From Candidatus Omnitrophota bacterium (GTDB lineage: Bacteria; Omnitrophota; Gorgyraeia; Duberdicusellales; 4484-171): DNA of 64,000 bases. The stretch is taken from contig CP070797.1 of the NCBI GenBank assembly GCA_020343495.1, forward strand, positions 1,510-65,509, written 5' to 3'. The notes beneath the pieces were generated by a model, which did no database searches, was not told the origin of the DNA, and saw only the letters and a list, made by a program, of their open reading frames with translations. The translations under genes were made by a program, and so were the position numbers. This document shows positions 2,063 to 33,936 of this stretch, piece after piece (position 1 is the first letter of the stretch; each line of letters starts with the position of its first letter).

Positions 2063-2083
2063 ATAACCTCGTCTTTTTTAAAT

Positions 2084-2161: not shown

Positions 2162-5100
2162 TCACCTGAATTCAAACCAAACCTGAGTAACCGGTTTATT
2201 AGCAACGTTCTCAATCATCTTCTTAGATAAATCCATGGTTGCTTTCAGCTCTTCAGTCTTATTCTTTAAATAGGTCATGTCTTCTTTCTTTTCTTTAGAG
2301 ACCTCGTATACTTTTTCTAAATCAATATCTTCGGTAGCACCTAATGCTTTAATCTGTTTACTGATATGACTCAATTGCGTAAATATGTACTCTATCGCTT
2401 CTTCCATCTCGCTGATGTCTTCATCTACTCCCACGCCCTTCTCAAGGTTAATAATCTGAGCCAAGGCGCTCTCAATCATATTAATTTGACTCTCTATACC
2501 TTCCGCTGCTTGAGCAAACTCACTCAAACGGGAAGTCGTTCCTAAAATCGCAGCCGTAGTAGAAGCAACGTCGGCAATATCATACTCGCTTGCAGTAATA
2601 ACCATTGCATCCGTAGTCCCGAGAGTTTCTTCCGCACAGATAATACTAAAATCTCCTATCCCCCACTGGGTTAAAAACTCTACGTCAAATTCATAAATTC
2701 CGCTTCCCGGCGTTGTCTCTTTCATTATACCCTTAGAAACCACAGCTTTATTCATAGCATCATAAACATCTATACTGGGAACCAGGCCTGTCTTTGTGCG
2801 GTAACGAACAGCCAAACTACCTCCGCTTCTTACAGTGGTCTCCCGATTCAAAATCCCTGACTTAATGTGCGGCTGGACACCGCTGACTACCGTCTCAGTA
2901 ATAAAAGAAGGCAACGTCTCTGTAGTAGCAGTCAGAATCTCAGCCGTATCAACTTTTATCTCCTCAGCTTTGGAAACAACCGTGCTCTTTACCTCTTCTG
3001 CCTCCTCCTCTACAACTTCTCTAGTAACCTCTTCTTCCTGTCTTATCGTTTCTCTAGTAACCTCTGATTCTGCGGTTACGTGCTCTCTAACGCCAATAAC
3101 TTCCTCTTTTATCTCATCACTCACTTCTTCAATCTTATCGGTAACTTCCTTCAGCTTTTCAGTAACAGTAATGGTAAAAGTCGTGCCGGAATAATATGTT
3201 ACTTTATCACCGGAAGTACCACCGTAACCGATACTGCAGCGGGCAAAATAGGTCTTACCGCTAACCAGCATCTGGTTTAAACCCTGAGGTGGCAGGCCAT
3301 CAATACCTTCAACTACGTTCTCAACCCTATACCAATAATTGCCTTGCTCATCTGCCTCGGGGTCGGTAAGAGTACCTATTAATGTATCGCCGTCATAGAT
3401 TAATACCGTGGCCAGGCCTAAGGCGTTTATATCACTGGTGACAATCTGCTGGCCTCTCTTCTCCAGCCGCATTGTTGCAGTTAAGGTATCACTTCGTTCA
3501 TCATAAGCAAAGTCAGACAACACGCGATAATCCGCTAACGACTCGGCAACAGACATTACAAATATGGTCCAGCTTATCTTATTATCATATTTTCCGTCGA
3601 CTCCGTCAGCGCTAACGCCAACTAACTTTTCAATCTGGGTAGGAACATATGCGTCTTTGACAAAATTAAAGGTATACTTTCCATAGGGCAGAAAGAGTTC
3701 AAAGGGTTCCTCGCCTTGACGTTCAATAGTATCAAGTTTGATTTTACCCTGGATAATCTCCAGCTTAATCTCTATAAGCGGGTTTCCAAAGACTGAATCG
3801 CGGGCTTCCCAGGTAACGCTATAGCCCGACTCTACCACTATATTGCCTGAGGGGACAGTAGAGTCCAATCCCACAGATGAGCCGACTATTGTAAGAGACG
3901 CAGTAGCTTCAGGATAAGTTATGTTAGAGAACCTGGCCAATCCGTTTACTGCTGTTACCTTAGTAGTGGCGTCTGCTCCAAACGACCCTGCTGAAGGCTC
4001 TACTGTTACTTCGTCGCTTGCGGAACTCAAGTTTCCGTAAGCATCGCTTACTTTAATAACAAAAGGCGCCCAAATAGCATTGACAGCAGTAATACTCTTT
4101 GGCAGATTATCCGCATCCCAGGAAAGCTTACTTCCCACACCCCCGTAAACTACCACATCCAAATCCGTCGTTGAACGGGTTTTAACTACCCCTTCTTCGG
4201 CTTGGACACTTGTAGTTTCCGCTTTGTATAAGCGGATAATGGTAGTGGTAACTCCCCTAACAAATGTGAGAATAGTCCCTTGATTGAAGGGTACCTGAAC
4301 TTGGGTATTATTCTCGGCAGTAGGGGGAATTTCCTGGTCATCAGGAGAAGATCCAGGCCCATTAAATTTAAGAGTTTTATCGCCTTCGTAGTCAGTAACC
4401 ACGTTATTATATTGGTCATAAGTAGTAATAGTTATTGTTTTGGTGTCGCCGGCCTTCATTGTAGAGGTGTCCGCCGTGATTCCGAAGTAATTTTCAACTG
4501 CCGGCATAACCGTGATATCATCCGAGGCGTCGTCTATACCATCGTCGCCATCAGCCGGAACAGCGTCGGATACTGTAATCGTCCAGTAGCCAGGCTCTTC
4601 CCTGCTGGTCTTTTCATCATAATACCAGAAGTCAACGGTGCTTGAACCGTTCTGTATTGACCTGGTAGTCACAACATTTCCTTCAGTATCTTTAAATGAA
4701 GCAGCTGTTCCGTCGGAAGTGGTGTATAAATATACTCTATCCTCATCAATTGTTTGCGGGTTAAGGTAAGCGTCGTATCTGGTTAGAGTATATTTAACAC
4801 TTGTTCCGGCAACAATATAATCAATATCCTCAGGCGAAGTTAATAAAGCAAAACTATCCGTTAGACCAGAGGACACACTAATATCTATGTTACGAGTCTC
4901 ATCTCCTATAGTAGTTACAACTCCCTGGGTAACTTCCAGAGAAACATCCTCAACATTATAGCAAACCAATGTTAACGCTCCTGCGTCAGATACGCCTTGC
5001 GTAAAATTAACGCTGCCCACTGAAGCCGAACCATCAACAAACTCTACACCCTTTATTGTAGGGATAGCTCCCGAAGGAGAATTAGCCGGCCCCGATGTAA

Positions 5101-8100
5101 ATGTCAAGGCCTTTGGCCCTTCATATACTGTGGCTACGTTATGGAACTCATCATAAGCGGTTACTTGTAACTCATTGGTTTCTGTTGCTCTCATTGTATT
5201 GTCGCCGCCGGTAAACCTAAAATATTCAGCAGGAGCAGCAGTAACGCTAATATCTTCCTGAGTATCAGTTAACATAGGTTGTTCAGTATCAACGACAGTA
5301 ACCCTATGTTGTGAGTCTGTTGTTGTTGTTCTAAACGTTATGCCGCCGCTGAAAGTGTGTGAACCGGCATCTGCCATCACAAAAGTATAATTTAGCGGTA
5401 ACGTCGCTTTAGCATCGCTGCACTCAAACCTCACTGTGCCGCTGTAACCGCTGGCTCTGTTATCATGCTGGTCATATAAGGTAACAGTAATATCGTTAGG
5501 AGCGCCGGCAGTTATGGATTGGCTAAGGTCGCTAATCTGGAGTTTTACCGCATCGTCAGGTTTAACAGTGAAAGTATAAGAACCTGCTTCTAACGAATCT
5601 CCGCTGCTTCTGATAGCAGTAATAGTAGTTTTTTCTGGTTTGAGGTCACTGGCTTCGGTATCGCTATAATAGAACGGCGCACTCTGGCTCTCACCCACTA
5701 AAATTTCAATCTGGATAGTAGGATTCATGCCAAAGGGGTCACGGTAAAACATCTTTTCATCCGAACCAGAATCAGAATCAAGTATAAACGCAGTTTCACT
5801 ACTTACAGTTGCGTCGTTAGTTCCCGGGTCTTGAGCAATTATATAAAACGGCCCGGAAATAACTCCTGCATCTATAGTTTCAGGACCGGTAATCCTTACG
5901 TCTACTGCTACACCAGCTATAACCTCTAAATCAAGGTCGCGATCCTCACTGGCAAAGGAATTTACAGTTCCGTCAGAAACATCCACAGTAGTGATCTCTG
6001 CTTTGTAAGCGATTAAGGTTGCTCCACCCGCAACAGAGACGCCATTACTAAACATTATCGGCGTGGGCGTCCCTAACGGCACACCTTCCACTTCAGGGAC
6101 TGCCGCAGGGGCTGGGTTAGGCCCGGAGAATGTCAACTGTTTCTCGTCGGTATAATTGTTAGGGCCTGAGTCCACTAAATTGTCCAACACATCATAAGCC
6201 CTGATAGTCAATTCGTTTTCGCTTCCCGCAGCCATTGAGCTGTTACCGGTTACAATAAGGTAACTGGCAGGAGCAGGAACAATTGTTTCGGTCTGTGTAT
6301 CTGAAGTTAATCCCGGCACTGCCGTATCACTAACGGTAATTAGAGGTGTTCCCGGGTCATCATCATAATAATCAAAGGAAACTGTGTCTACTCCGGAATC
6401 GATATTAATCATACCCAGGCCTCCCGGTGGAGAAGTAGTGCCTGTATTGTAAAAAATCCCATTAGAGCTGGTCTCCAACTCAATGGTATATAATCCCAGC
6501 GCTTGAGGGTTATCAAACCTATCCTGGACCTGGACGCTCATAGTTCCCGGTTCACCGGCATTTAGGGTAAGCGCAGGATTCGTGATAACCAGTTTTTCTG
6601 CATCCGCAGGAATAACCGTCTGGGCCTGCTCATGGGAGTCTAAATCTCCTGCGGCATCGGTTACGGTTATTGCGGGGCTGCCTGCCTTTTCATCGTAGTA
6701 ATCAACAGTGACGGAACTGACTCCATCAGGGATAGCAATACTACTATCAGCAAGTTCGGTTTGCGTGCCGGTCTGATAGAAATGGTACTCTTGTTCCGGA
6801 GGGGTTGCCTGAGAGTCACTGCTTAGATTAACCTCTACAAACCCTTCTGACTGCGGACTTCCGAATGTATCCTGAACCTCAACAGTTATCGTTCCCTGTG
6901 TTCCGGCAGTTAAAGTAAACGCTGAAGATATAATGCGAAGTCTTGACGCTGTAGCAGGGATGATTGTATGAACCTGTTCATCAGAAGTAAGACCTGCTGC
7001 CTGGACAATAACCTTGGGCGTTCCCGGCTCCTCATCATAATAATCAAAGCGCACATAACTTTCTCCATTAAGGGCAGTCTTGCTGTTCATTGGGGTAGTG
7101 GTACCCTCTTCATAGAAATAATTGAAATCCGGTAATGGATATTCTCTGGCTGGAACAACAAGATAAATACCCTGCGGTTGAGGGTTGCCAAAACCATCCT
7201 GTATTTCAACATTCATTGTCCCCGGCAGGCCTGCTTCAAGACTGAGCGGGTCGGTAGTTATAACCAGTTTTTCTGCATCCGCAGGGATAATCGTCTGGGC
7301 CTGCTCATAGGGGTCTAAATTTCCTGCGGCATCGGTTACGGTTATTGTGGGATTACCTGCCTTTTCATCGTAGTAATCAACAGCGACGGAACTAGTTCCA
7401 GCAGGGATAGTAATACTGGTAGTGGCGGTTTGCGTCCCGGTTTGATAGAAATGGTATTCTTGCGGGTCAACTGCCTGGGAGTTACTTGCCAAATTAACTG
7501 TAAATGAGCCGTCCGACTGAGGGTTACCATGAATATCCTGGACTTCTACGGTAATTGCTCCCTGGACGCCTGCTGCCTGATTTAAAGCGTCAGAAGTAAT
7601 CTGCAACTGTGCTGCATCAGCCGGAGTAACGGCAATGCTATACGAATCATATCCTAAATCTTCGTCCCCTCCGCTTATCCATTTAGCAGTCACGGAAGGA
7701 CTTGCTACCTTTGTATCTTTGTAATAAAAAGTTGCTGTACCTGTTCCCGCATACATTGTTACGGTAGTAGCCTCTACCATTCCTCCGGCATCTAAATAAA
7801 ACAACTCCTCGCCTTGAGAATCTGAAGAAAGTTCAAACAGTTCATCGTTTTCCACGAGAGTGTCATTACTAACAATATCCTGGGCAGTTATTATAAAGGC
7901 GCCGGATACTTCATCCACAACAACTGCTGCCGGCCCGCTAAGTTCTATTATTGCAGCAGGCCCGGGTTTGGTGGTAATAGGGTCACTGTATCCCCTAACG
8001 CCGTTATCGTCCTTAGCTATTATCGTAATTGTTTCAGCAACGTTATTTTTAACATAAACCGTAGCTACGCCATCAATTAATCCGTACCTGGCAGGAGTCT

Positions 8101-11100
8101 TAAGTTGAAGATAGCTCTCATCTATATAGAACTGGGCATTACCCTCATTACCCTCGTTATCCTCGTTACTCATAATTACTTCGGTCTCAGAGTCAGTTGT
8201 CACTATGTTGCCGTAAGGGTCATAAGCAGTAACTGTAACCTCCCATCCGGTACCGGCATCCTGGTCGGTGTCGCAAGTTACCTCATAACGCTTAATAACA
8301 GAAGAAGGGCCAACCGTAATTGGGTCTGGATTGTGAAGACCGCTAATCTCGTTTTCCGGATCTTCTACAGTGACCGATTGCTCGCCTACGGTTTTTAGAA
8401 TTACTCCGTTACCTTTTGAGACGCTGAAGGTTACATACCCCGCTCCTAAACAATCAGCAGTCTGATAATGTATGGTTACGTCTTTTAACGTAGGCGTAAT
8501 TGTATTATCAGCGCTTGTCATAATTGCCTGATATTTGATATACTTATGGTTATTGTGGACGCTGGATATATCCTGGCCGGAAATGGTGTAGTAAAGGCCA
8601 GATACATCAGTTCCAACTTCACCTGCTGCTAAGTCTTCAATCTCATCAGGAGTTACTGCGCGGTTAAATATAGCCACTTCATCTACACTCCCAACATTTT
8701 GACTATCGGTATGATTGCCAATCCTACTTAAATCCTGTGTTATTTGTGTATTGGCTGTACTTACATAATTACCATCAATATAAAATTTTGTTGTCCCTCC
8801 CGAACTTATAGCTGCGATATGGTGCCAGCCTGCCGATAAAGAGTTGGTATTATATCCGCTCGAAGACCAACTATTGTTATAACATCCTATATTTCCGGAA
8901 GAATCCCATATAATATGATGATAAGTTCCCCCTTGCCGCTGGAATAAAGTTCTCCATCCCTGTGCTGTTGTGGGAAGCGGAAACTTAACCCATGCTGCCA
9001 TTGTTCTATCACCATTCATATTTATTGGTGAGATATTTACATAATCTGAAGTACCATCAAAATTCAATGCCCTTCCAAATTTGCCGGCAATCCAGACAGG
9101 AGTATTTACCAGTGTTCCTGTATTATTGCTAGGTGAACTATCTTGCGCACTCATGCCGCTACCTTCATTAAAATGCCATAACCCCACCAATCCTGGAATG
9201 AGGTCGGTCTGAGCGTCCCCTTCCCCCGGCCCCACAAACTCTGTCCAGCCGGTATCCGGGAGGGTTGAAGAAGCAATCAGGAATTTGATGCTTGTATCTT
9301 CAGGCACATCAGCATTCCAGGATATGCCGGAAAACCACGCCGGCTGCTCTAAATTCTTTATTGAGGAAGTAAACGTACCAGAAGTGCTATACAGCGTTTT
9401 ACTTTCCCACCAGGCAATGTCCCTGGCGTAATACGCCGACCCTAAGATATCTGTATCTCCATCGCTATCTATATCGGCGGCGTAGATACCCCAAGTATGA
9501 TCAAAACCTCCATCGATTACGTGTTTAGTAAAGCTTTGCATACCGTCGTTCTCATACCATGCCACGTCATCAGCATAAGCAGCCGAACCTAAAACATCAA
9601 TATCTCCGTCTCCATCTATATCTGTGGCATAGACGTCAATAGCGCCGTCAAAACCTCCATCAATTGTGTGTTTGGTGAAACTTTGCGCGCCGTTATTCTC
9701 CCACCAGGCAATGGCATCGTGGTAAAGCGCTGCACCTAACACATCAATATCGCCATCTCTATCTACATCAGTAGCGTAGATGCTGTAACCACAATCAAAA
9801 TACGTATCAATATTATGTTTGGTGAAACTCTGGTTACCGTCATTCTCATACCAGGCAATGTCATCCCAACCCTCTGATACACCTAAAACATCAATGTCGC
9901 CATCTTTATCTACATCTATAGCATAGACATCACGAACATAATAAAAATATGAATCAACAAAGTGTTTGGTAAAGTTCTGCTCCCCGTCATTCTCATACCA
10001 GGCAATGTCATGGTCGTAGACCGCTGCACCTAAAACATCCATATCTCCGTCGCTATCCACATCTATGGCATATACACTACAAGCATAATTAAAATTTCCA
10101 TCAATTACGTGCTTGGTAAAATTCTGCAGGCCATCATTCTCCCACCAGGCGATGTCATCAGTATTAGCTGCTGCACCCAAGACATCCATATCGCCATCAC
10201 TATCTACATCAACAGCATACACGCTATGGGCACCATCAAAACCTCCATCAATTATGTGCTTGGTAAAGTTCTGCGCGCCGTCATTCTCCCACCAGGCGAT
10301 GTCATCAGCTTCACGTGCTGCACCTAAAACATCCATATCTCCATCGCTATCCACATCTGCGGCGTAGACGTCAATAGCACCAACAAACTCTCCATCGATT
10401 ACATTTTTGGTAGTAGGGATAGCCACAGAATAAAGCGACAGTTCCGCTGCCTCGCCTGTTCCCCGCACTTGCGTACCTAAAGCCGGGCCGCTTGCGCCGC
10501 TTTTGAATTCCGTATCAGAACTCTGCCTCCATTCTTCAGGAACAACAAACCAGTAATTCTCAGGTAACACTGCTTGAGCATCTGTTGAAGAAAACTGGAT
10601 TTTACCGGTATAGTTCGCCGTAATATTGTTACTGGCATCCAATGCCGTTACTGTTATATCACTGGGCGTGCCGGCATTTATCGAGGACGGGATTCCTTCT
10701 ACTTTTAAACTTACTACTTCTTCGCCGCTGCCAACCACAATAGGAGAAGAGGCGCCCGAATAGTCGTAATCAGTAACGCTTATCGTAATAATTTCCGGCG
10801 TAGCGTCTTTAGCAAAAACAGTGGCAGTGCCTCCGGAAAGATTATAAAACACTGCTATCGTATCGTAGCTATCGTTGGTATAAAATTGCGCATCACCGTT
10901 GCTAGAAGGAGCAATTGCCACGGCTGCGCTGGCAACTGTATTGCCGTATTTATCTTTAGCTGTAACTGTCTCCTGCCAGCCAACACCTATGGTCTGAGGA
11001 GTGTGCGTGGTTACTTCATAATAACTGATATCGCCGGCTTCTACAGAGATGTATCCTGTGCTTGCCGTTATGTCATCTTTATCTTCAATCGTCAGGAAAA

Positions 11101-17100: not shown

Positions 17101-20100
17101 CCCTTAAGGTCTCACTCCAGCCCAGACCTGCGGTTTGCGTAGAAGACGTAGTAATTGAATACCTGCTAAAATCTAAATATGTAACTTCAACTTCAACAGA
17201 CTGTGAGCCGGTAAGGTCTGAATTTTGCGTATCTGTAACTGTAACTGTCTGCTCGCCTTTAGTTTTTAATGTTACACCTCTTCCTTCTGCCGCGGGAAAA
17301 GTAACCTTTCCTATCCCGGCCAACCCTTCATACTGATAACTGATAGTTACACCTTTTAAGATTGGCGTATCCGAAGTTTCCGGCAGTCGCTCTAAATAAG
17401 CCCTGTATTTAACATATCTGTGATTTCTATGCGCAGAAGAAATAGCCTGGCCTGGAGTTGTGTAATAACTATCTACTGCTGCGCCCGGGCCAAGAAACTC
17501 TGTCCACTCGCCGTCTTGCGGCTTTGAGGCAACCTGGAATTTGACCGAAGTACCCTCGGGCGTATCCGCATCCCAGGAGATGGCAGAAAGCCAGCAGACC
17601 TGCCCTAAGTCTTTTTCGCTGGAAGTAAACATCCCTGAAGGATAATAAATTATTTTCTGGCTAGCACATTTAAGGTCATTGTTATCGTCATCATAGTAAC
17701 TTGTATGGACGATATGGTTAGAGTCAACGGCAATACTTGCGTACTTGCCAACGTCTCCTGTTGAATCTATTACAGCGCCTTCCCATAATCCGGAAGCGTT
17801 GGTGAGGTACTTGAGGTCTCTGTTACTGTTATCAAAATAACAGATGTACACTTTATCATCAGAATCAAGGACGATAGATGTACCGTACCGGCCCAAATCT
17901 CCCGGGGAATCCATGGCAGTGGCTACCCAGCTTCCGGAAGCATTAGTAGCGTATTTTAAATCATCGTTACTCTCATCAAAATAACTTATATGCAGCTTAT
18001 CGTTGGAATCAAGGACAAGAGAAGTCCATTGGCCAACATCTCCTCCTGTATCAATACTCGTTGTTACCCAGTCTCCGGAGGTGTTGGTGGCGTATTTAAG
18101 GTCGTAGTTGGTTCTATCTCGATAACTTATATGCACCTTATCGTTAGAATCAATGGCAATACTTGGGTATTCGCCAACACGCCCAGAAGAATCTAATATA
18201 GTATTTACCCATTCGCCTGACACATTAGTGACATATTCAAGGTCAGATTGATCAACATCATAATAGGCTATATGTGTTTTATCATTAGAATCAATGGCAA
18301 TGGATGAATAGCGTGGTCTATGAGAATATATTTGGACAACTAGTGTAGTTACCCAGCCACCCGAAGCATTAGTGGAATGATAAACCTTGCCTGGCCAATA
18401 ATAATCGTGACAAAAACTTATATGCACCTTATCGTTAGAATCAATGGCAATTGATGGATATTGAATATCACCGCCGGAATATATCAAAGTATCTACCCAA
18501 TCTCCGGAAGCATTGGTAGAATACCTAATACCAGAAGCGCTCCCGTCCCTATAAGCAATATGCAGGTTCCCTTGAGAATCAACAGCAAGAGAGGTCCATG
18601 AGCCCGCATCTCCTGGAGAATACACAACAGCAGGAACGGCCCCTTCCCAGGTTCCGTAGCTTCCTAATTTTACCCCTGCTTCTTCACCTGAAACGGAAAC
18701 AGTTGTCTGGAAAGGCTCTCCGGCTCTAAAATCTATCTCCGAACTCTGAGTGTATGTCTCAGGGGCAACAAACCAGTAAGTCTCCGGCAACTCTACAGGT
18801 AGCTCTGCTTCCGTATCGCTGGAAGTAAAATGAATCTCTCCTGTATAATCGTAGTTGGTGTTACCATGAGTATCCACGGCCCTGACAGTAACATCCGAAG
18901 GCGTACCCACAGGTATAGTTTCAGGAAGCCCTGAGACCTCAAATCCTGTATGGATATTGGCTTTTACCGTTAAAACATCGCTGACATCGTCTGCGCCTAT
19001 ATCACCATCGTACTCTGTAGGGTTATCGGAAGCAGTAATTGTCTGGTCTCCCGCCTCATCATCATAATACCAGAAGTTAGCAGAAGACTGGCCCTCACGT
19101 ATAACTATGCCTGTGTCGGTAATGTCAATTCCGCCTGTGACCGCGTCGTAGAACCTGGCGTTTGCGCTGCCGGAGGTTGTATATAGGTAAACAGTCTCAA
19201 CGCCGCTAATACGAGGCTCTCCATCCAAATCATAACGCGTCACAGTGTAAGGAGCCCTTGCTCCTCCTGCAATTATATCGGTGGGGTCAGTAAGCGCGTA
19301 AGAGCCGGTAGTGGCAGCCGGGTCATCAGCAATGGTGAAGTTCTCTTCAGTAGTGATATCCGATAAATACTGGATTGTATAGGTTGAAGCGCTAAGAGAG
19401 TTAGCGCAGTTATAATCCGTAACTACTGCTTTAAGCCCTGCGTCTGTTTCTAATTGCGGCTGTTTTACTGGTTTACCAAAAGCAGTTTGAACTTCAGGGG
19501 AGAAAGAAGAAGACGTTATATACAACTCATCAATTATTCCGTTAAAATTGGCATTAGTTGAAGAACTGTTGCCTATATAAAAATTAGAACCTATTCCGGA
19601 AGGAGAAAGCGCGGTTGTATCTATGCCTTTGGCTATACCATCCACATACAAAACATAAGTATCATTATTATAATCCCAGGCTATTTTTACCCAGTGCCAT
19701 TTTCCGTCATAGGTGTCAGCAGTATCCTGTACGCTCTGGGCTGCGCCAAATTTAAAAGTAAGCATTCCTGAACTGTTATAGTAGAGGTTAAACCCTCCCC
19801 CTCCATACAATAAATACTCATCAGCAACAGGGTTATCCGGGGAACTGGATTTCACCCACATACCTAAAGAACCAACTGTTTCCTTAAGATTAGATGTGGT
19901 AGAAAACATCTGGTAATCCCCGGCAGCGTTAAACTGAATACCGCTTCCATTGATACCGCTAACTACTGTTGTAGCGCTTTGAATACGGCTGTCTACTCCC
20001 ACGGTATAATCGGCGCCATCGGTAGTTGAATCCATACCGTCATAAAAAGTCAAGTCAGGATGAGGATGGGCGAAACTGTTAGCAAAGTCCGAATGAAAAG

Positions 20101-25064: not shown

Positions 25065-25961
25065 TTACCGAGATTGAACCTCGATATTTCGGATGACTTT
25101 ATCTTCGTAAAGTTCAACTTTCTCCTGGGAAAATGTCTGAGTAATCAACTCATTAATAATCCGGTCCCTCTGGCGCCTAGTATATTCAAACTCCACTTGC
25201 TGACGCACCTGCTTAAAAGGCTTATCCTGAGCAGGTTCTTTCTCGTTAATATGAAAGACGTAAAATTCATCCTTTATCTTAAGTACGTCAGTTACCTCGC
25301 CCTTATTAAGTTGAAAAATCTTATCTAACACCTGCGATGACAATATTTCTTCTAATTCGGGAGCAAAAGGTGCATCTTTTGAAATCCAGCTATCTATCCT
25401 GGTGATATTTCTTCCGCCGACTTTCTCAAAATTTCTGCCTTTATTCAATTGGTGGACTATTCTGTCTGCCTCCTTTTTGCTTTTTGATTTAACATAACTG
25501 AGCTTCACTTTTTCTTTTATGCGATATTTTTCTTTATTCTGCTCATAATATTTGCGCAAATCTTCTTCGCTGATTTTGAGTTTGGTGAATTCGTCAGCCA
25601 CCAACTTCTCAGCTAAAATCCCTCTCCTGGCGCGCTCTATCTCATGGATTACATCTGCTTCTCTGTCAAGTCCCTGACGCTTTGCCCTTTTAGCCAGGGC
25701 GAGGGTGGCAATATACTTACGGAAAAAATCCAGGCGCCAGGTTTTGCTCGTCTGGAAGTTCTCTTTAAGAAACCGGTTAAGTTTCTCTGATTCCCGCTCT
25801 AACTCCGAGAAGTATATCTTCTCTTTACCTATCGTTGCTATAATAAGGTCTTTGGCTGCCTCCTCTTCCTTAGACTCAGAAAAAACACTAGCCGTAACTA
25901 CAATCGTCATTACCGCCATCATTGGAACCAACAATTTTATTTTCATCATCCGCCTCTCCAT
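25065..25961 (-). CDS. Secreted PpiC/parvulin-type (SurA/PrsA-like) chaperone; the rotamase domain looks degenerate
   Basis: Signal-like MKIKLLVPMMAVMTIVVTASVFS. SurA-N-like helical region. Parvulin-like C-half: KVKLSYVKSKSKKEADRIVHQLNKGRNFEKV...LNKGEVTDVLKIKDEFYVFHINEKE. The true start is probably the internal ATGATG after GGAGAGG (M5/M6). Confidence 0.6.
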   Translation of the reverse strand: MERRMMKIKLLVPMMAVMTIVVTASVFSESKEEEAAKDLIIATIGKEKIYFSELERESEKLNRFLKENFQTSKTWRLDFFRKYIATLALAKRAKRQGLDREADVIHEIERARRGILAEKLVADEFTKLKISEEDLRKYYEQNKEKYRIKEKVKLSYVKSKSKKEADRIVHQLNKGRNFEKVGGRNITRIDSWISKDAPFAPELEEILSSQVLDKIFQLNKGEVTDVLKIKDEFYVFHINEKEPAQDKPFKQVRQQVEFEYTRRQRDRIINELITQTFSQEKVELYEDKVIRNIEVQSR

Positions 25962-25979
25962 ACCCGGTGTACGTTGGGT

Positions 25980-26615
25980 TTATTCTATAAGTTTATGTTG
26001 AACGGCATACTTTATAAGTTCTGACGTCTTATGAAGCCCCAGTTTTTTAAGGAGATTATTCTTATAGTTTTCTACGGTCCTGCGGCTAATAAAAAGGACT
26101 TCGGCTATTTCTTTTGCGGTTTTTCCTTCTACTATGAGGCGTAAGATATCAGCCTCCCGTTCAGTAAGGATTTCTTCAGCCGGTCCCTTGCCCTCACGGG
26201 TAACTTTTTCTATCATATACCGGGAAACCTGAGGGCTCATATACACCTCTCCCTTAGAAACATTACGTAAAGCCGGCAAGAGTTCCTCAACAACGTTCTC
26301 CTTATGAAGATACCCTTTAACGCCTAACTTCAATGCTTTTGCTATATAAATATTTGCCCGGTGCACTGTAACCATAATGACTTTTGTATTCGGCGAAAGA
26401 TAACGAATTTGCTCAATTACATCAAGGCCGCTCTTTTTAGGCATTGTAATATCCAGGAGAATGATATCCGGTTTAAGATTTTCTGTATTGCGAATAACTT
26501 CTTCTCCGTCTACAGCCTCACCCACCACTTTATACTCTGCCTGATTACGTAATATACTCTTGATTCCTTCACGAATAACGTCGTGATCGTCAGCAATCAA
26601 TACTTTCACCGCCAT
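25980..26615 (-). CDS. NarL/FixJ-family response regulator (REC + LuxR-type HTH)
   Basis: VLIADDHDVIREG...DIILLDITMPKKSGLDV...LTEREADILRLIVEGKTAKEIAEVLFISRRTVENYKNNLLKKLG. Confidence 0.9.
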   Translation of the reverse strand: MAVKVLIADDHDVIREGIKSILRNQAEYKVVGEAVDGEEVIRNTENLKPDIILLDITMPKKSGLDVIEQIRYLSPNTKVIMVTVHRANIYIAKALKLGVKGYLHKENVVEELLPALRNVSKGEVYMSPQVSRYMIEKVTREGKGPAEEILTEREADILRLIVEGKTAKEIAEVLFISRRTVENYKNNLLKKLGLHKTSELIKYAVQHKLIE

Positions 26616-26629
26616 TTCTTGTCTCCTTC

Positions 26630-27967
26630 TTACACTACCAATTCCACACTAATCTTAGTTCCTTTACTCACCTGGCTCTTAATATCCAACTTACCGCCTA
26701 AGAGCTCTATCCTTTCCCTTAACCCCTGTAAGCCCAGCTTCAACTTATCTTCACGTCGGCGCCGCGGCCGAGTGAGAAACTGCTGGTAATCAAACCCTTT
26801 ACCGTCGTCGCTAACGCTAAGATACACGGTGCGGTCTTTTTTCTGAAGGGATACCGTAACATTTCTTGCGTCAGCGTGTTTAATAACATTGGTTAAACAC
26901 TCCTGCACTACGCGGTAAAGAGCAAGGCTGTATTCGGGAGCGAGTTTTAAATCATAAGCCGGCTTATAATAGCGGTACTTACAATGCATTAGTTTCTGGT
27001 GTTCCGACACTAAAGCAGCGATACTTTCTACCAACCCTAAATCATCCAACTCCGGCGGCCGCAACAACTCAGAAATATTATGCCCTCTATAAATTAAGCT
27101 GTCTAATATCCCTTTACTTTTCTCAATCTTTTCTCTCTGCTCAAGGTTTTTGCCCTCTATATTTTTCTCAATAAGTTCTAAATAAATCTTTAATGCGCTT
27201 AAGTCCTGGCTTAACTGGTCGTGAATTTGACGGGAAAGGTTTTTACGTTCCTCCTCTTCCAGGCGAATCATTTTGCGGACAAGCCATTCCCGTCTCGTGC
27301 GTTCCTCTTCAAGGCTCTTATACACAAAAACAGCGATAGTTACTCCCAAAAGGATACTAAAAACCAAACTCACTAATAAAATAGCTGTAGAAACGTCCTT
27401 CTGTCTATAAGTTAACTTTAACTGCCGCTCAATATCTTTAAGATTGTTTTTACTTAACGTATTGGCCAGGAGGTCATCAATGCGGTAAAACTTATTTTCA
27501 AAAGAAATAAGAAATCTATTTACTTTTTCGCTGTCTTCGGCAGCGCTGTCTACTAACTCAATAAGTTTTTTACCGGTTTCTTCCAATCCTTTAGCTAATT
27601 CCTCAATAATTTTAAGCCAGTTCTCCTCTTGCTGTGAATCTGCCAGTAAATAATATTGCTTAATATAGTCTTTAAACTTAGCAGAGGATTTCTCAATAAA
27701 GTTCATATCGGAAGCAACTGAGGCAGCGTGCAGATACTTAGAAATACGCCAGGACACGTAATTGCGGACCCCCATGGAGTAAAAAGTGTTTTCAATTTTC
27801 ATCTCTAAAATTACCCTCTCTTTGGGTAAATACTTCTGCTCAAAATTCTCAATGGCTTTAGTCAAAACGTTAATTTGCAGCAGCCCCATAATGCCAATAC
27901 TTACGGTAAGGACAAGAAATAAACCAAACCCGATTAATAGCCTTTTTTCTCTAAAATATACTTTCAT
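26630..27967 (-). CDS. Sensor histidine kinase, HisKA_3/NarX-LiaS type, with a ~160-aa extracytoplasmic helical region
   Basis: TM1 at residues ~10-30 and TM2 at ~193-216. H-box RQIHDQLSQDLSALK. HATPase motifs ECLTNVIKHA, VSDDGKGFD, GLQGLRERIELLGG. Confidence 0.9.
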   Translation of the reverse strand: MKVYFREKRLLIGFGLFLVLTVSIGIMGLLQINVLTKAIENFEQKYLPKERVILEMKIENTFYSMGVRNYVSWRISKYLHAASVASDMNFIEKSSAKFKDYIKQYYLLADSQQEENWLKIIEELAKGLEETGKKLIELVDSAAEDSEKVNRFLISFENKFYRIDDLLANTLSKNNLKDIERQLKLTYRQKDVSTAILLVSLVFSILLGVTIAVFVYKSLEEERTRREWLVRKMIRLEEEERKNLSRQIHDQLSQDLSALKIYLELIEKNIEGKNLEQREKIEKSKGILDSLIYRGHNISELLRPPELDDLGLVESIAALVSEHQKLMHCKYRYYKPAYDLKLAPEYSLALYRVVQECLTNVIKHADARNVTVSLQKKDRTVYLSVSDDGKGFDYQQFLTRPRRRREDKLKLGLQGLRERIELLGGKLDIKSQVSKGTKISVELVV

Positions 27968-27988
27968 TGTCTCTGTTAACGATATAAT

Positions 27989-28729
27989 CTATTGGGAATA
28001 TTTTCCTTCAGGGAAAACCTGCTGATAAACCACGTCCTTAAGCCGGTTTATCCAGTTTAAGACTTCTTGCTTATCGGATGCCTCAGGTTTAAGTTCTAAA
28101 TATTTCTGATAATGAAGGATAGCTTTCTCCGGCTCTAAATTAAAGTTTTCATACAAAAGGCCTAAATTATAATGTGCCTCAGCATTCTTTGGTTCAAAAC
28201 TTAAAGATTTCTCATAGGCCTCAACAGCTTTACTGAAAAGCTTAGCCTGAACATAGGATACTCCTAAATTATAATAGTAGAATCCTCTTTCTTTTCTTAA
28301 AGTCTCTTCTAAAGTTACTACTTTCGCTTTAAGCTCGCTGTGTTCTTTAGCTAAAACATCCTGCTTCTCGTCTTTGGCTTCCGTTTCTTTAGTCATCTGG
28401 CTCTTTAATAATTCCAGCTGGCTACTTAAATTTTCTATATTTATATCTTTTCCTTCTACTGAGGATTTTAACTTTTTAATCTCTTCTTGCAACTGAGTAG
28501 TAAACTTTGTATAGTAAACCGCGTCAGCCTGAAACTCCTGGTTTTCCTCAAGTATTGTTTTCTTCTCTTTCTCCAAACGCTTAATATCTTCTTTTAGTTT
28601 CTCTGCTAGCTGGTCCGACTGGTCTAACTGCATCTGAAAAGAACTACCTTTTAAATAGAAACTTACCGCTACTGCAGCTATTGATATACTCCAAATTACA
28701 AGAATCGCGACCAAAATTTTCTGCGTCAT
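27989..28729 (-). CDS. Membrane-anchored coiled-coil + TPR protein
   Basis: N-terminal TM ILVAILVIWSISIAAVAVSFYL. About 110 aa of heptad-rich KE/LE sequence. C-terminal TPR-like region: YYNLGVSYVQAKLFSKAVEAYEKSLSFEPKNAEAHYNLGLLY. Confidence 0.7.
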   Translation of the reverse strand: MTQKILVAILVIWSISIAAVAVSFYLKGSSFQMQLDQSDQLAEKLKEDIKRLEKEKKTILEENQEFQADAVYYTKFTTQLQEEIKKLKSSVEGKDINIENLSSQLELLKSQMTKETEAKDEKQDVLAKEHSELKAKVVTLEETLRKERGFYYYNLGVSYVQAKLFSKAVEAYEKSLSFEPKNAEAHYNLGLLYENFNLEPEKAILHYQKYLELKPEASDKQEVLNWINRLKDVVYQQVFPEGKYSQ

Positions 28730-28751
28730 CTGCTACTACCGATTACAGGCG

Positions 28752-28765
28752 AGGGGCCTTCCCCT
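28752..28765 (-). other. Small GC-rich hairpin between the two TPR genes
   Basis: Sense AGGGG-AAGG-CCCCT (5-bp stem, 4-nt loop). No U-tract follows. Confidence 0.3.
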
Positions 28766-28766
28766 T

Positions 28767-29777
28767 TTACTGTAGAATATTTATCAGGTCTCTTGCTTTT
28801 TCGTTATATTTACCGTAAGGCTCCAACTCCAGATACTCGCGAAAACATTCTACGGCTATTTTAGAATCTTTTCTTTGATATTGATACAACAGCCCCAGGT
28901 AATAATATATAAGAGGGTCATCTGCCCTCAGGGTTAAAGATTTCTTATACGCTTCTATCGCTTCATTATACAACTTTGCCTTAACATAAGAAGCTGCTAA
29001 CTGTGCATAAAGAGCTGACTTTTCTTTTTTATTCTTTTCTTTCTCTTTAGATAAAGCTTGGGAAAACGCCGCCAGTTTCTCTTCTAAAGCCTTATTCTTA
29101 GCTTCAACTTCAGACACGCCAGCCGCAAATGCAGCTAATTTATCCTTAGAATCTTTCTCATCTTGCTTTTGTCCCTCATCTGATTTAGCTTTGGCTGCCC
29201 TTTTTATATCACGTTCAAACTTATCCAGGACTTCGTCTAACTCACTCCTGGTGTAACTTTTTCCTGTCAGCGGCGCTGCCTTCCTTCCCACATCTTCTAC
29301 GGATACGCCCAGTTTAGCGGCTATATCTGCAAGATGTTGTTGTGCTTTATCTGTCCAGGGATCACTTTTCTCTCCCAACTTTATTCTCCTCCTCCAGTAA
29401 TAGGCAGATTCCTGATAATCGCCTTTCTCTTCATAAAGCAAGGCTAAATTAGAATATGCGCTTATACATTTGGGGTCTTTCTCTATACATTTTAAATAAT
29501 ACCGGGCTGCTTCTTGAGGCTGGCCCTTTGCTTCATATATAACTCCTATATCATTATAGAGAATAAAATAGGCGGGGTCTAAAGTTAAAGCTCGCTGGTA
29601 AAAACTCATTGCAGCATCTATATCGCCTTTTTTCTGAGAGGCGTACCCTTTATTTCGAAGTTCTCTTGCACTTTGCTGTAATGCCGTCAATTGCCCGGCT
29701 TCTAAATAAGGAACATAGATAAAAACTGCTATTAAAAAAGACAGAACTCCAAACTTTAATCCCAAACATCTCATCAA
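28767..29777 (-). CDS. Secreted TPR / coiled-coil / TPR protein
   Basis: Signal-like LKFGVLSFLIAVFIYVPYLEA. TPR units: AMSFYQRALTLDPAYFILYNDIGVIYEAKGQPQEAARYYLKCIEKDPK and more. A central charged coiled coil, then C-terminal TPRs. Confidence 0.7.
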   Translation of the reverse strand: MMRCLGLKFGVLSFLIAVFIYVPYLEAGQLTALQQSARELRNKGYASQKKGDIDAAMSFYQRALTLDPAYFILYNDIGVIYEAKGQPQEAARYYLKCIEKDPKCISAYSNLALLYEEKGDYQESAYYWRRRIKLGEKSDPWTDKAQQHLADIAAKLGVSVEDVGRKAAPLTGKSYTRSELDEVLDKFERDIKRAAKAKSDEGQKQDEKDSKDKLAAFAAGVSEVEAKNKALEEKLAAFSQALSKEKEKNKKEKSALYAQLAASYVKAKLYNEAIEAYKKSLTLRADDPLIYYYLGLLYQYQRKDSKIAVECFREYLELEPYGKYNEKARDLINILQ

Positions 29778-29828
29778 TTTATTGTATCCTAAAAACAGTA
29801 AAAACTAAAGACTTAAAATAAAAAATTA

Positions 29829-31583: not shown

Positions 31584-31597
31584 ACTTTATAATTTTA

Positions 31598-31644
31598 TCA
31601 CAGAAAATTAAAAAACAGAAGAATTTGACTACGATTTTCTGTGA
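31598..31644 (-). promoter_or_regulatory. 11-bp inverted repeat between the two secretin genes, with a competing terminator-like pairing
   Basis: Plus strand tcacagaaaat (31598-31608) pairs with attttctgtga (31634-31644). On the sense strand the 5' arm ACAGAA (31637-31642) can instead pair with TTCTGT (31615-31620), which is directly followed by TTTTT. Confidence 0.4.
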
Positions 31645-31648
31645 ACTT

Positions 31649-33265: not shown

Positions 33266-33266
33266 A

Positions 33267-33908
33267 TTACCTTAATTCTAATTCGCTGCCTTCTACGTCT
33301 ATCATAACTCTATTCTTATAAATCTTTTTTATCGTTATAACTCCCAACTGGTCTCCTTCCGACAAAAGATATGTTTTTTCTTCCTGTTCGTCTTCAATCA
33401 TAACCTCAGGGTTAATCTTTGACCATATAATCCCCACCAATTTTATCCCCTCAATAAGCTTTAAAACGTCTCTTTCTGTTATCTCTTCTCCTTTTTCCAC
33501 TTTTTCTTCTTTCGGAAGAGTAAAACTGAATACATTGCGTTTCTTCGCCTGGGAGATACTTTCTTCTAAACTTACGTCTAAATAAGCTTTGCTTTCCTTA
33601 AATATATTAAAGTCAGCGCTTACGGTTTCAACGGCTGCCACTCTACTCACCCATTTAACTCTGGAATAATAAAAATAAACCGCCCAAAAAACTGTTATGC
33701 CAACACATACCCCCACTAATATTTTATTAATTGTCCGCAGTTTAAACGCCTCTAGAATCTTTTTTCCTTTGCGAAGCTGCTGGATATTTAACTTAGTTTT
33801 CAGATGGTCAGCTTTTCTCTTAAAAAAGGAAAAGTGTTTTTCTGCGGCGGAAGGATTTTCTATTATCTTAAGCAATTTATCTTCGGGAGTCATCTTATCC
33901 TTTTCCAT
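33267..33908 (-). CDS. Bitopic membrane protein with a PilP/GspC-HR-like C-terminal beta domain (possible secretin-docking component)
   Basis: One TM: ILVGVCVGITVFWAVYFYY. C-terminus: IKLVGIIWSKINPEVMIEDEQEEKTYLLSEGDQLGVITIKKIYKNRVMIDVEGSELEL. Only one nucleotide (33266) separates its stop from the secretin start. The assignment is by pattern only. Confidence 0.4.
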   Translation of the reverse strand: MEKDKMTPEDKLLKIIENPSAAEKHFSFFKRKADHLKTKLNIQQLRKGKKILEAFKLRTINKILVGVCVGITVFWAVYFYYSRVKWVSRVAAVETVSADFNIFKESKAYLDVSLEESISQAKKRNVFSFTLPKEEKVEKGEEITERDVLKLIEGIKLVGIIWSKINPEVMIEDEQEEKTYLLSEGDQLGVITIKKIYKNRVMIDVEGSELELR

Positions 33909-33936
33909 TATTTTAACTCCTTCTTAATATATTTCT

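What the first reader, a model, noticed from the sequence alone, without database searches (positions are those of the whole stretch)
8310..18950. Russian-doll domain nesting repeated four times, with a different beta-propeller slotted into the same Ig-like scaffold each time
**Seen in the sequence**
- Four supermodules: 17185-18950, 14550-16850, 12030-14220 and 8310-10725.
- Each starts with the N-half of a common bacterial Ig-like domain (...GN..x.Y.G.VHFTSSD...LPEDYWFV.P).
- Each ends with the C-half of that domain (GAG.V.FSAAKG.GV.LKT.G.Q.VT..DT....ISG....ITV).
- An uninterrupted copy of the same Ig type lies at ~5245-5545: TVRFECSDAKATLPLNYTFVMADAGSHTFSGGITFRTTTTDSQHRVTVVDT. It shows the two halves are normally contiguous across the ADAG loop.

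**What sits between the halves (600-750 aa)**
- A propeller plus a beta-sandwich.
- The propeller differs between modules: two 7-blade SIAIDSNDKVHISY-type propellers, one 5 x 53-aa FG-GAP block, and one 7 x 46-aa VCBS-type block.

**Inference**
- This looks like a cassette system in which the ligand-binding propeller is exchangeable on a fixed Ig/sandwich chassis.
Basis: partly seen in the sequence, partly recalled or inferred. Interest (0 to 1): 0.8.

Follow-up and report, generated by a model that had tools for sequence, protein, structure and literature searches.

The report
Nested lectin heads in split Ig domains
A 7,444-residue bacterial surface protein interrupts the same loop of an Ig-like stalk domain four times to carry a large sugar-binding-type "head" (adaptor sandwich, beta-propeller and usually a LamG domain); this extends the "split domain" design known from RTX adhesins.

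Summary
One 7,444-aa ORF (window 2162-24496, minus strand) contains four supermodules at the stated coordinates.

- **Split Ig domain.** A profile built only from 104 uninterrupted Ig domains of other proteins hits each module as two complementary pieces (positions ~3-58 and ~62-98 of 100). The pieces lie 482-697 aa apart. The intact copy at 5237-5545 matches positions 4-99.
- **Nesting is probably deeper than reported.** The insert is an unannotated ~105-aa beta-sandwich with no Pfam or PDB relative. It is preceded by a conserved ~35-aa segment (sandN). The propeller sits between sandN and the sandwich core. In three of the four modules a LamG domain splits the core at profile position 91/92.
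- **Propellers.** Two are 7-bladed and resemble Photorhabdus PLL-type lectins. One has 5 x 53-aa FG-GAP blades. One has 7 x 49-aa (not 46) FG-GAP/VCBS blades.
- **Same break elsewhere.** Other genes, two of them in Omnitrophota MAGs, are broken at the same Ig loop with different cargo.
- **Not shown.** AlphaFold2 was confident for the propeller and sandwich but not for the Ig halves, and no coordinates were available. So 3D reconstitution of the Ig fold is unproven.
- **Exchange.** I found no sign of an active exchange mechanism. Swapping appears to be evolutionary only.

The closest known design is the split Ig-like domain of RTX adhesins. I rate this a new variant of a known kind.

The parts
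2162..24496 (-). Giant ORF of 7,444 aa. It has a single N-terminal hydrophobic segment (aa 21-41) and no RTX repeats.
18767..18952 (-). M1 Ig N-half (aa 1849-1910)
   Evidence: Matches the contiguous-Ig profile at positions 3-54, E 9e-17
18662..18766 (-). M1 sandN segment (aa 1911-1945), motif xTQSSExDFxxG...VKLG
17651..18661 (-). M1 seven-bladed propeller (aa 1946-2282), SIAIDSNDKVHISY type
   Evidence: AF2 pLDDT 83-95. Foldseek matches PLL/PHL lectins at TM 0.76. Seven 141-144-nt repeats.
17321..17650 (-). M1 sandwich core, uninterrupted (aa 2283-2392)
   Evidence: Matches the sandwich profile at positions 29-138, E 8e-46. AF2 pLDDT 95-97.
17159..17320 (-). M1 Ig C-half (aa 2393-2446)
   Evidence: Profile positions 69-98, E 7e-11
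16679..16852 (-). M2 Ig N-half (aa 2549-2606)
   Evidence: Profile positions 10-58, E 2e-15
16577..16678 (-). M2 sandN segment (aa 2607-2640), the most divergent of the four
15632..16576 (-). M2 seven-bladed propeller (aa 2641-2955)
   Evidence: AF2 and Foldseek; repeats
15461..15631 (-). M2 sandwich core, first part (aa 2956-3012)
   Evidence: Sandwich profile positions 31-91
14834..15460 (-). M2 LamG domain inserted in the sandwich (aa 3013-3221)
   Evidence: Laminin_G_3, E 2.6e-34
14693..14833 (-). M2 sandwich core, second part (aa 3222-3268)
   Evidence: Sandwich profile positions 92-138
14522..14692 (-). M2 Ig C-half (aa 3269-3325)
   Evidence: Profile positions 62-98, E 5e-10
14045..14218 (-). 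M3 Ig N-half (aa 3427-3484)
13937..14044 (-). M3 sandN segment (aa 3485-3520)
13154..13936 (-). M3 FG-GAP block of 5 x 53 aa (aa 3521-3781)
   Evidence: FG-GAP E 5.6e-30 and FG-GAP_3 E 1.3e-31. 159-nt period. Blades 70% identical in aa.
12977..13153 (-). M3 sandwich core, first part (aa 3782-3840)
   Evidence: Profile positions 34-92
12308..12976 (-). M3 LamG insert (aa 3841-4063)
   Evidence: Laminin_G_3, E 8e-24
12173..12307 (-). M3 sandwich core, second part (aa 4064-4108)
   Evidence: Profile positions 91-137
11999..12172 (-). M3 Ig C-half (aa 4109-4166)
   Evidence: Profile positions 65-98, E 9e-8
10544..10717 (-). M4 Ig N-half (aa 4594-4651)
   Evidence: Profile positions 5-58, E 3e-19
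10427..10543 (-). M4 sandN segment (aa 4652-4690)
9398..10426 (-). M4 FG-GAP/VCBS propeller of 7 x 49 aa (aa 4691-5033)
   Evidence: FG-GAP_3, E 1.8e-43. 147-nt period. Blades listed.
9221..9397 (-). M4 sandwich core, first part (aa 5034-5092)
   Evidence: Profile positions 30-91
8594..9220 (-). M4 LamG insert (aa 5093-5301)
   Evidence: Laminin_G_3, E 2.9e-17
8453..8593 (-). M4 sandwich core, second part (aa 5302-5348)
   Evidence: Profile positions 85-137
8276..8452 (-). M4 Ig C-half (aa 5349-5407)
   Evidence: Profile positions 62-86, E 6e-4; alignment
5237..5545 (-). Uninterrupted copy of the same Ig type (aa 6318-6420)
   Evidence: Profile positions 4-99, 80 bits, E 6e-27; alignment
16862..17158 (-). 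Intact second-subtype Ig domain (IgB) following M1. Equivalent copies follow M2 (14222-14521), M3 (11705-11998) and M4 (7961-8275).
25065..34779 (-). Upstream locus: Rotamase_2 PPIase, LuxR-type response regulator, HisKA_3 kinase, two TPR proteins, two secretins, a hypothetical protein and an AAA_22 ATPase
   Evidence: It matches the locus described upstream of Omnitrophota giant genes.

Best explanation
**What it is.** This is a giant cell-surface fibre protein, most likely from an Omnitrophota-like bacterium. Its stalk is a chain of Big_1-like Ig domains.

**Architecture.**
- At four points one stalk domain is a 'split domain'. Its polypeptide leaves the fold at the beta-turn between the ...YTFT and GxHTF... 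strands, builds a 480-700-aa head, and returns to finish the Ig fold.
- Each head is itself nested. An adaptor beta-sandwich of a family not in Pfam carries a beta-propeller between its N-terminal segment (sandN) and its core.
- In three of the four heads the sandwich also carries a LamG/ConA-like domain in a surface loop of the core.

**How it probably works.** Entry and exit are at the same hairpin, so the stalk stays continuous and each head projects sideways. This would present lectin-like surfaces (a PLL-like 7-blade propeller, Ca-type FG-GAP propellers, LamG) for multivalent, multi-specific glycan binding to a prey or host cell.

**How the modules probably arose.** They come from old duplications (chassis 42-52% identical). 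The propeller slot was later refilled or re-amplified.

**Shown:** the split at sequence level, the common breakpoints, the domain identities, the recurrence in other genes, and confident AF2 folds for the propeller and the sandwich core.
**Inferred:** 3D completion of the Ig fold, sandN packing on the sandwich, sideways projection, glycan binding, and export via the upstream secretin locus.
For: - **Complementary Ig halves** against an independent profile, with the same breakpoint in all four modules. The halves align colinearly with the intact copy.
- **The domain is normally uninterrupted.** 139 of 140 half-pairs are contiguous in other proteins. In 80 metagenome loci I counted 361 intact domains and one split one.
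- **LamG splits the sandwich at profile position 91/92** in M2-M4, while the M1 sandwich is intact. In the M1 AF2 model that site falls in a loop (model residues ~482-514) of a domain with pLDDT 88-97.
- **sandN goes with the core.** It was found 15 times in 3,077 proteins or ORFs and was always followed 145-781 aa later by a sandwich core (11 of those 15 hits are to sequences used to build the model or their near-duplicate). The intervening domains are unrelated to one another.
- **The same Ig loop is broken in other genes:** L001/L091, P0279 and, in the IgB subtype, L010.
- **Propeller structure.** Foldseek places it nearest Photorhabdus PLL/PHL fucose-binding lectins (TM 0.74-0.77, rmsd ~3.5 A over ~345 columns).
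- **Pfam domains.** FG-GAP_3 and Laminin_G_3 are significant.
- **Precedent.** Split Ig-like domains that project ligand-binding domains sideways are documented in RTX adhesins (PMC10865825; PMC12077191).
- **Genomic context.** Rotamase_2 plus secretins upstream matches published Omnitrophota giant-gene loci.
Against: - AF2 did not fold the Ig halves or sandN confidently. In M1 the pLDDT was 74-77 for IgN, 29-45 for sandN and 42-61 for IgC. The M2 chassis was mostly below 50.
- No coordinates or PAE were available, so pairing of the halves was never observed.
- This sandN type was never found directly abutting a core. Tandem arrays of the core lack it. It could therefore be a linker rather than part of the sandwich.
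- Binding function is inferred from fold resemblance only. Sialidases and glycoside hydrolases are also among the Foldseek hits.
- The source organism could not be identified.
Confidence: 0.7

Rival explanations
1. Two-level arrangement only. The Ig domain is split, but the propeller and the sandwich simply follow each other in series inside the loop. On this view sandN is a conserved linker or a strand belonging to the Ig or propeller side, not part of the sandwich.
For: - AF2 folds the sandwich core at pLDDT 95-97 without a confident sandN (29-45).
- Tandem arrays of ~105-aa cores exist without sandN (P0349, P0352, P0359).
- This sandN type was never seen abutting a core.
Against: - sandN stays constant while the domain between it and the core changes among at least seven unrelated types. 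That is the usual signature of an insertion between two parts of one unit.
- sandN plus core also occur together without any Ig host (P0320, P0351).
- sandN had only about four informative rows in the AF2 alignment, so low pLDDT there is weak evidence.
Confidence: 0.3
2. The heads are catalytic rather than adhesive. On this view the BNR-like propellers act as sialidase- or glycoside-hydrolase-type enzymes that degrade a prey cell envelope, and LamG serves as an accessory binding module.
For: - Sialidases and GH family propellers (BT3686, trans-sialidase with its lectin domain) are among the Foldseek hits at E 1e-11 to 1e-14.
- Homologues carry the Pfam BNR_4 family.
- West-Roberts et al. propose carbohydrate degradation for Omnitrophota giant proteins.
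Against: - The best structural matches, and the only ones with TM above 0.7 and low rmsd, are non-catalytic PLL/PHL lectins.
- The sialidase matches have rmsd 11-26 A.
- No Pfam sialidase or GH family reaches significance on M1 or M2.
- FG-GAP and LamG are typically binding domains.
Confidence: 0.15
3. The flanking segments are not halves of one fold. They would be independent short elements or degenerate remnants of Ig domains, or each C-half would pair with the N-half of the next module instead of its own.
For: - AF2 confidence for the C-halves is low.
- Pairing was never observed directly.
Against: - Each segment has only 3-5 strands and covers non-overlapping, complementary profile positions.
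- The halves alternate strictly N, C.
- A complete IgB domain lies between one module's C-half and the next module's N-half.
- The core residues of the intact domain are conserved in the halves.
- The same split is kept in independent genes.
Confidence: 0.07
4. An active cassette-exchange mechanism, such as programmed recombination or a diversity-generating system, swaps propellers within the gene.
For: Different propellers occupy an identical position. Repeated chassis sequences could in principle support recombination.
Against: - Chassis copies reach only 63-79% DNA identity over patches of 33-81 nt, with no long near-identical repeats.
- No recombinase or reverse transcriptase was found among the 30 window ORFs I annotated.
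- The modules are only 42-52% identical in protein.
Confidence: 0.03

Closest known systems
Split Ig-like domains with projecting ligand-binding domains in RTX adhesins (MpIBP, V. cholerae FrhA, A. hydrophila AhLap; PMC10865825, PMC12077191, Graham et al. 2024 Proteins 92:933)
   Same: - An Ig-like stalk domain of a giant fibrillar surface protein is interrupted by a complete ligand-binding domain, so the cargo's N and C termini sit together and the domain projects off the fibre axis.
- Several such units occur per protein.
- The cargo is often a lectin or CBM.
- Second-order nesting is also known: in AhLap the beta-roll contains vWFA, which contains a further insert.
   Different: - There are no RTX nonapeptide repeats and no type I secretion context here. 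The upstream genes are secretins plus a Rotamase_2 PPIase.
- The cargo is far larger (480-700 aa) and is mediated by a dedicated, unannotated adaptor sandwich with two insertion sites.
- The cargo includes whole beta-propellers.
- The same Ig loop is used four times in one protein.
Omnitrophota giant genes with an upstream type II secretion-like locus (West-Roberts et al. 2023, bioRxiv 10.1101/2023.11.21.568195)
   Same: - A very long ORF with attachment or carbohydrate-type domains.
- It is immediately preceded by a Rotamase_2 PPIase and GspD-type secretins.
- The nearest homologues with the same nesting that have a named source are in Omnitrophota MAGs.
   Different: - That paper's text contains none of the terms 'nested', 'inserted' or 'Ig-like'.
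- This protein is 7.4 kaa with one hydrophobic segment, far below the >30 kaa multi-TM giants emphasised there.
- gspE and gspF are not in the window.
Integrin subunits (alpha FG-GAP propeller with inserted I domain; beta PSI containing hybrid containing beta-I), recalled from my own knowledge
   Same: - Nested insertion in which an Ig-like sandwich (the hybrid domain) hosts a ligand-binding domain in a loop.
- FG-GAP Ca-binding propellers serve as ligand-binding heads.
   Different: This is an analogy only. There is no homology of the hosts, the propeller here is the guest rather than the host, and the protein is bacterial and single-chain.
Photorhabdus PLL/PHL seven-bladed lectins (PDB 8q83, 6rg2, 5mxg)
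   Same: Best structural match to the M1 and M2 propellers: TM 0.74-0.77 normalised to the target, over the full ~340 residues.
   Different: Sequence identity is only 13-16%. The sugar-binding residues were not examined. PLL lectins are free-standing proteins, not inserts.

Membership tests
Split Ig-like domain plus projecting ligand-binding domain (RTX-adhesin design) | One Ig-like sandwich whose sequence is interrupted by a complete foreign domain, with both parts flanking it | tested here: met
   Complementary profile halves (positions ~3-58 and ~62-98 of 100) flank 482-697-aa inserts in all four modules. The domain is contiguous in 139 of 140 cases elsewhere.
Split Ig-like domain plus projecting ligand-binding domain (RTX-adhesin design) | In 3D the two parts complete one fold and the cargo projects away from the fibre axis | tested here: inconclusive
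   AF2 pLDDT in M1 was 74-77 for IgN and 42-61 for IgC. The M2 chassis was mostly below 50. No coordinates or PAE are returned.
RTX adhesin | C-terminal RTX nonapeptide (GGxGxD) beta-roll with a type I secretion signal | tested here: not met
   The whole protein has zero GGxGxD motifs. The C-terminus is helical and E/K-rich. The neighbouring genes are secretins, not T1SS components.
Pfam Big_1 (PF02369) | Score at or above the gathering threshold of 34.9 bits | tested here: not met
   The consensus of the contiguous homologues scores 24.3 bits, E 3.4e-5. The window's intact copy gives no Big_1 hit. Many homologues carry precomputed PF02369 hits. It is therefore Big_1-like but not a formal member.
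FG-GAP / VCBS propeller (PF01839, PF13517) | Significant match to the repeat families | tested here: met
   M3: FG-GAP_3 E 1.3e-31 and FG-GAP E 5.6e-30. M4: FG-GAP_3 E 1.8e-43.
FG-GAP / VCBS propeller (PF01839, PF13517) | Seven blades closing a propeller | tested here: inconclusive
   M4 has 7 x 49-aa blades. M3 has exactly five 53-aa blades between sandN and the core. Neither was modelled.
Laminin_G_3 / ConA-like lectin (PF13385) | Match above the gathering threshold of 27.6 bits | tested here: met
   M2 scores 119 bits, M3 84.9 bits and M4 63.7 bits. M1 has none.
BNR_4 (PF15892) / PLL-type seven-blade lectin | Pfam match, or a fold match together with sugar-binding residues | tested here: inconclusive
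   The M1 propeller has no significant Pfam hit (best E 0.0035, RCC1_2). The homologue P0004 matches BNR_4 at E 2.7e-12. The fold matches PLL/PHL at TM ~0.76. Binding residues were not examined.
Omnitrophota giant-gene locus (West-Roberts 2023) | Giant ORF preceded by a T2SS-like secretion locus that includes a Rotamase_2 PPIase | tested here: met
   The Rotamase_2 gene lies directly upstream (25065-25961), two secretins lie at 29829-33265, and an AAA_22 ATPase at 33937-34779. The paper's description is. gspE and gspF were not found in the window.
Omnitrophota giant-gene locus (West-Roberts 2023) | Genome belongs to phylum Omnitrophota | not testable with these tools
   Exact-match look-ups of three window proteins found nothing. 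Of the homologues with the same nesting, the two with a named source are in Omnitrophota MAGs.

The most novel reading that the evidence does not exclude
The sandN plus ~105-aa sandwich pair would be a dedicated, so far unannotated 'socket' domain family. It would have two fixed insertion sites: one between sandN and the core, and one at core profile position 91/92. It would recurrently host unrelated ligand-binding domains (BNR-like, FG-GAP, LVIVD and other propellers, LamG, DUF2341 plus ConA-like, a ~160-aa beta domain). It would itself plug into one specific beta-turn of Big_1-like Ig domains. If so, it is a general three-tier construction kit that ultra-small bacteria (Omnitrophota, Patescibacteria) use to build multivalent lectin heads on giant surface proteins.
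Probability: 0.4. Interest if true: 0.6.

Novelty: new variant of a known kind. Interest (0 to 1): 0.5.

Why it matters
- **Finding binding heads in unannotated giants.** Giant proteins of Omnitrophota and other uncultured ultra-small bacteria are largely unannotated. In RTX adhesins, recognising split domains is the practical way to locate ligand-binding heads. Finding the same logic here, with a recognisable adaptor sandwich and fixed breakpoints, gives a sequence-level rule for locating the functional heads of these proteins. Pairs of half-domain HMM hits would mark them.
- **A new domain family.** The work defines a family absent from Pfam and from the PDB by sequence.
- **A natural example of tolerated insertion.** The same host loop tolerates insertion of 480-700 residues four times in one chain. 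That is of interest for protein engineering and for how propellers are born by blade amplification.

Tried and rejected
1. A homologue search with the whole module region (3,571 aa) timed out.
2. The search for homologous proteins appears to return only targets up to about 1.75x the query length. All 120 hits for the 598-aa query were <=1,047 aa and all 77 hits for the 360-aa query were <=629 aa. Giant homologues were therefore unreachable that way. The M1 query was swamped by free-standing BNR-like propeller proteins. The 'chassis' query returned only tandem Ig arrays.
3. The exhaustive representative search with sandwich + IgC + IgB was dominated by Ig arrays. Only 5 of the 150 listed proteins had the sandwich, and one (P0279) had the nesting.
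4. AF2 of M2 with a 6-row alignment gave pLDDT 62 and an unresolved chassis.
5. I tried to enrich the AF2 alignment with contiguous Ig domains or Ig half-fragments. In local tests MAFFT stacked them onto the sandwich columns, so I left them out. Only sandwich rows were added. This rescued the sandwich (pLDDT 95-97) but not the Ig halves.
6. Foldseek on both models returned only propeller-driven matches, so the sandwich fold could not be classified.
7. Profile searches of the sandwich against PDB sequences and Pfam found nothing significant.
8. The metagenome scan keyed on the HFTSSD motif and returned almost only intact Ig domains.
9. Exact-match look-ups of three neighbouring proteins failed to identify the source.
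10. Rfam (1-2300) and tRNA (whole window) scans found nothing.
11. I considered and rejected an assembly artefact. The ORF is continuous, the four modules are only ~50% identical, and the same break recurs in independent assemblies.

Full report
**1. What is there**

The region lies inside one uninterrupted ORF of 7,444 aa on the minus strand (window 2162..24496). The protein has a single N-terminal hydrophobic segment (aa 21-41). It has no GGxGxD (RTX) motif.

Pfam finds the following:
- DUF2341 and two Laminin_G_3 domains in the first 1,850 aa.
- FG-GAP_3 in modules M3 and M4.
- Laminin_G_3 in M2, M3 and M4.
- Nothing significant for the M1 and M2 propellers, for the Ig segments, or for the sandwich.

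**2. Check of the observation**

The N-half motif occurs at aa 1889, 2589, 3467 and 4634, plus 6356 in the intact copy. The C-half motif occurs at aa 2394, 3271, 4111 and 5351. In window coordinates the supermodules are 17159-18952, 14522-16852, 11999-14218 and 8276-10717. Joining each N-half to its C-half gives a sequence that aligns colinearly with the intact domain at aa 6315-6425.

For an independent test I took tandem Ig arrays from unrelated proteins returned by a homologue search.
- In those proteins, 139 of 140 neighbouring N-half/C-half hit pairs are directly contiguous, forming domains of about 100 aa.
- I built an HMM from 104 of those contiguous domains. Its consensus reads ...GTVHFTSSDSQAVLPADYTFTAADAGVHTFSVTLKTAGSQTITATD... 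.
- That HMM hits the giant protein as complementary pieces: M1 at positions 3-54 and 69-98, M2 at 10-58 and 62-98, M3 at 5-81 (weak tail) and 65-98, M4 at 5-58 and 62-86.
- The intact copy matches positions 4-99 at 80 bits.

The break therefore falls in the same beta-turn (TAA|DAG) every time. The pieces alternate strictly N, C, N, C. In 80 metagenome loci carrying this Ig type I counted 361 intact domains and one split domain.

**3. The insert is itself nested**

- **LamG inside the sandwich.** Aligning the post-propeller parts of the four modules shows that the M1 sandwich is continuous. M2-M4 carry a ~210-220-aa Laminin_G_3 domain between ...WTEFxGP and YYTxSG.... A profile of the reconstituted sandwich hits M1 once (positions 29-138). 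It hits M2-M4 twice each (31-91 + 92-138; 34-92 + 91-137; 30-91 + 85-137). In the AF2 model of M1 this site lies in a loop (model residues ~482-514) of a domain predicted at pLDDT 88-97.
- **A conserved segment before the propeller.** This ~35-aa segment (sandN, motif WxQTSxxDFxxG...L) precedes every propeller. Eleven of those 15 hits are to sequences used to build the model or their near-duplicate (L091); the four independent hits are weaker (E 7e-5 to 1e-3).
- **What lies between sandN and the core elsewhere.** The intervening domains are BNR-like, FG-GAP and LVIVD propellers, another propeller type, DUF2341 plus ConA-like, LamG plus a second sandwich, or a ~160-aa beta domain.

Constant flanks around a variable middle argue that the propeller is inserted into the sandN + core unit. 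That gives Ig[sandwich[propeller; LamG]].

Two caveats apply. AF2 gave sandN only pLDDT 29-45. Tandem arrays of the core exist without sandN. So this middle tier is probable, not proven.

**4. The domains**

- **M1 and M2 propellers.** Each has seven 47-48-aa blades. AF2 pLDDT is 83-95. The best structural matches are Photorhabdus PLL/PHL fucose-binding lectins (E ~1e-14, TM 0.74-0.77, rmsd ~3.5 A). Sialidases and GH propellers match more weakly. Sequence homologues are abundant free-standing proteins, some matching Pfam BNR_4.
- **M3 propeller.** It has exactly five 53-aa FG-GAP blades.
- **M4 propeller.** It has seven 49-aa blades, not 46-aa.
- **Sandwich core.** None of 24 members matches any Pfam family, and there is no PDB relative by sequence (best E 0.12).
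- **Ig type.** It is Big_1-like but scores below the Pfam threshold.

**5. Relatives**

| Gene | Source | Ig break (profile positions) | Cargo between sandN and core |
|---|---|---|---|
| L001 / L091 | Omnitrophota MAG STB_143 and a metagenome contig | 2-63 / 55-98 | DUF2341 (E 1.9e-24) + ConA-like |
| P0279 | GCA_041653355.1 | 3-58 / 55-100 | Laminin_G_3 + an extra sandwich |
| L010 | Omnitrophota MAG CSMAG_411 | IgB subtype, 3-66 / 58-103 | BNR-like propeller |

The L010 break is at the equivalent loop of the second Ig subtype. The sandN-insert-core unit also occurs without an Ig host in P0320, P0351 and related proteins. The sandwich core alone, with no sandN hit under my model, occurs in Patescibacteria genomes and proteins.

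**6. History rather than machinery**

- Chassis copies are 42-52% identical in protein. The module LamGs are 30-38% identical to each other, against 18-27% to the N-terminal LamGs.
- At DNA level only short patches of 63-79% identity link the modules.
- Blades within M3 (70% aa, 77% nt) and within M4 (60% aa) are more alike than the chassis copies. The propellers were therefore amplified, or re-amplified, after the modules duplicated.
- I found no recombinase or reverse transcriptase among the 30 window ORFs I annotated.

The 'cassette' idea therefore holds as evolutionary modularity, not as an active system.

**7. Mechanism and comparison**

Split Ig-like domains are an established feature of RTX adhesins. 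The ligand-binding domain buds from a split Ig-like domain so that its termini lie together. The binding face then projects away from the fibre axis (PMC10865825; PMC12077191). The present protein uses the same design but is not an RTX adhesin, since it has no RTX repeats.

Its context is a Rotamase_2 PPIase immediately upstream, then a two-component pair, TPR proteins, two secretins and an AAA_22 ATPase. This matches the conserved locus reported upstream of Omnitrophota giant genes. Those genes are proposed to mediate prey adhesion and cell-wall attack. That paper's text contains none of the terms 'nested', 'inserted' or 'Ig-like'. A second Omnitrophota preprint contains none of 'propeller', 'FG-GAP', 'laminin', 'nested', 'inserted' or 'secretin'.

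I therefore read the four modules as laterally projecting, multi-lectin heads on a surface fibre. Binding, export route and 3D completion of the Ig fold are inferences.

**8. Limits**

The tool returns no coordinates, so the decisive contact test could not be made. The source organism could not be identified.

**9. Verdict**

The feature is a new variant of a known kind (split-domain adhesin architecture). It is distinguished by three-tier nesting, whole propellers as cargo, fourfold reuse of one loop, and an unannotated adaptor domain. Interest 0.5.

Noticed in passing
window 2-2077 (minus strand): A second ORF starts just downstream of the giant gene and runs off the window start. Its 690 aa are 43% identical to the first 700 aa of the giant protein (signal anchor, sandwich-like domain, DUF2341 plus ConA-like, Ig). 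The two are tandem paralogous genes sharing an N-terminal 'base'.
   Followed up: partly
window 25065-34779 (minus strand): The genes directly upstream are a Rotamase_2/SurA-like PPIase, a LuxR-type response regulator, a HisKA_3 kinase, two TPR proteins, two tandem secretins, a hypothetical protein and an AAA_22 (GspA/ExeA-like) ATPase. This is the same kind of locus reported upstream of Omnitrophota giant genes. No gspE or gspF is in the window.
   Followed up: partly
window 13154-13936: The M3 FG-GAP block has exactly five 53-aa blades, which are 70% (aa) and 77% (nt) identical to each other. FG-GAP propellers normally have seven blades. I did not model whether five close a ring. The blades are younger than the module duplication.
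   Followed up: partly
window 17321-17650, and the sandwich cores of M2-M4: The ~105-aa sandwich core has no Pfam family (0 of 24 members match) and no PDB relative by sequence, yet AF2 folds it at pLDDT 95-97. It forms tandem arrays in other proteins (P0349, named Moranbacteria by its source; P0352; P0359). It looks like an undescribed domain family.
   Followed up: partly
window 23618-23872 (aa 209-293) and the following ~170 aa: The N-terminal region carries DUF2341 followed by a ConA-like region. This is the same domain pair that fills the Ig/sandwich slot in the Omnitrophota homologue L001. By eye it is flanked by divergent sandwich-like segments (aa ~45-150 and ~470-590) that my sandwich HMM did not detect.
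   Followed up: no
window 2162-3200 (aa ~7100-7444): The C-terminal ~350 aa are E/K-rich and look helical or coiled-coil. They give only weak Talin_middle and Apolipoprotein hits. No recognisable anchor or secretion signal was found there.
   Followed up: no
L010 (Omnitrophota MAG CSMAG_411), ORF aa 710-1270: A sandwich carrying a BNR-like propeller is inserted into the second Ig subtype (IgB; profile positions 3-66 and 58-103). The adaptor unit therefore uses the equivalent loop of more than one Ig family.
   Followed up: yes
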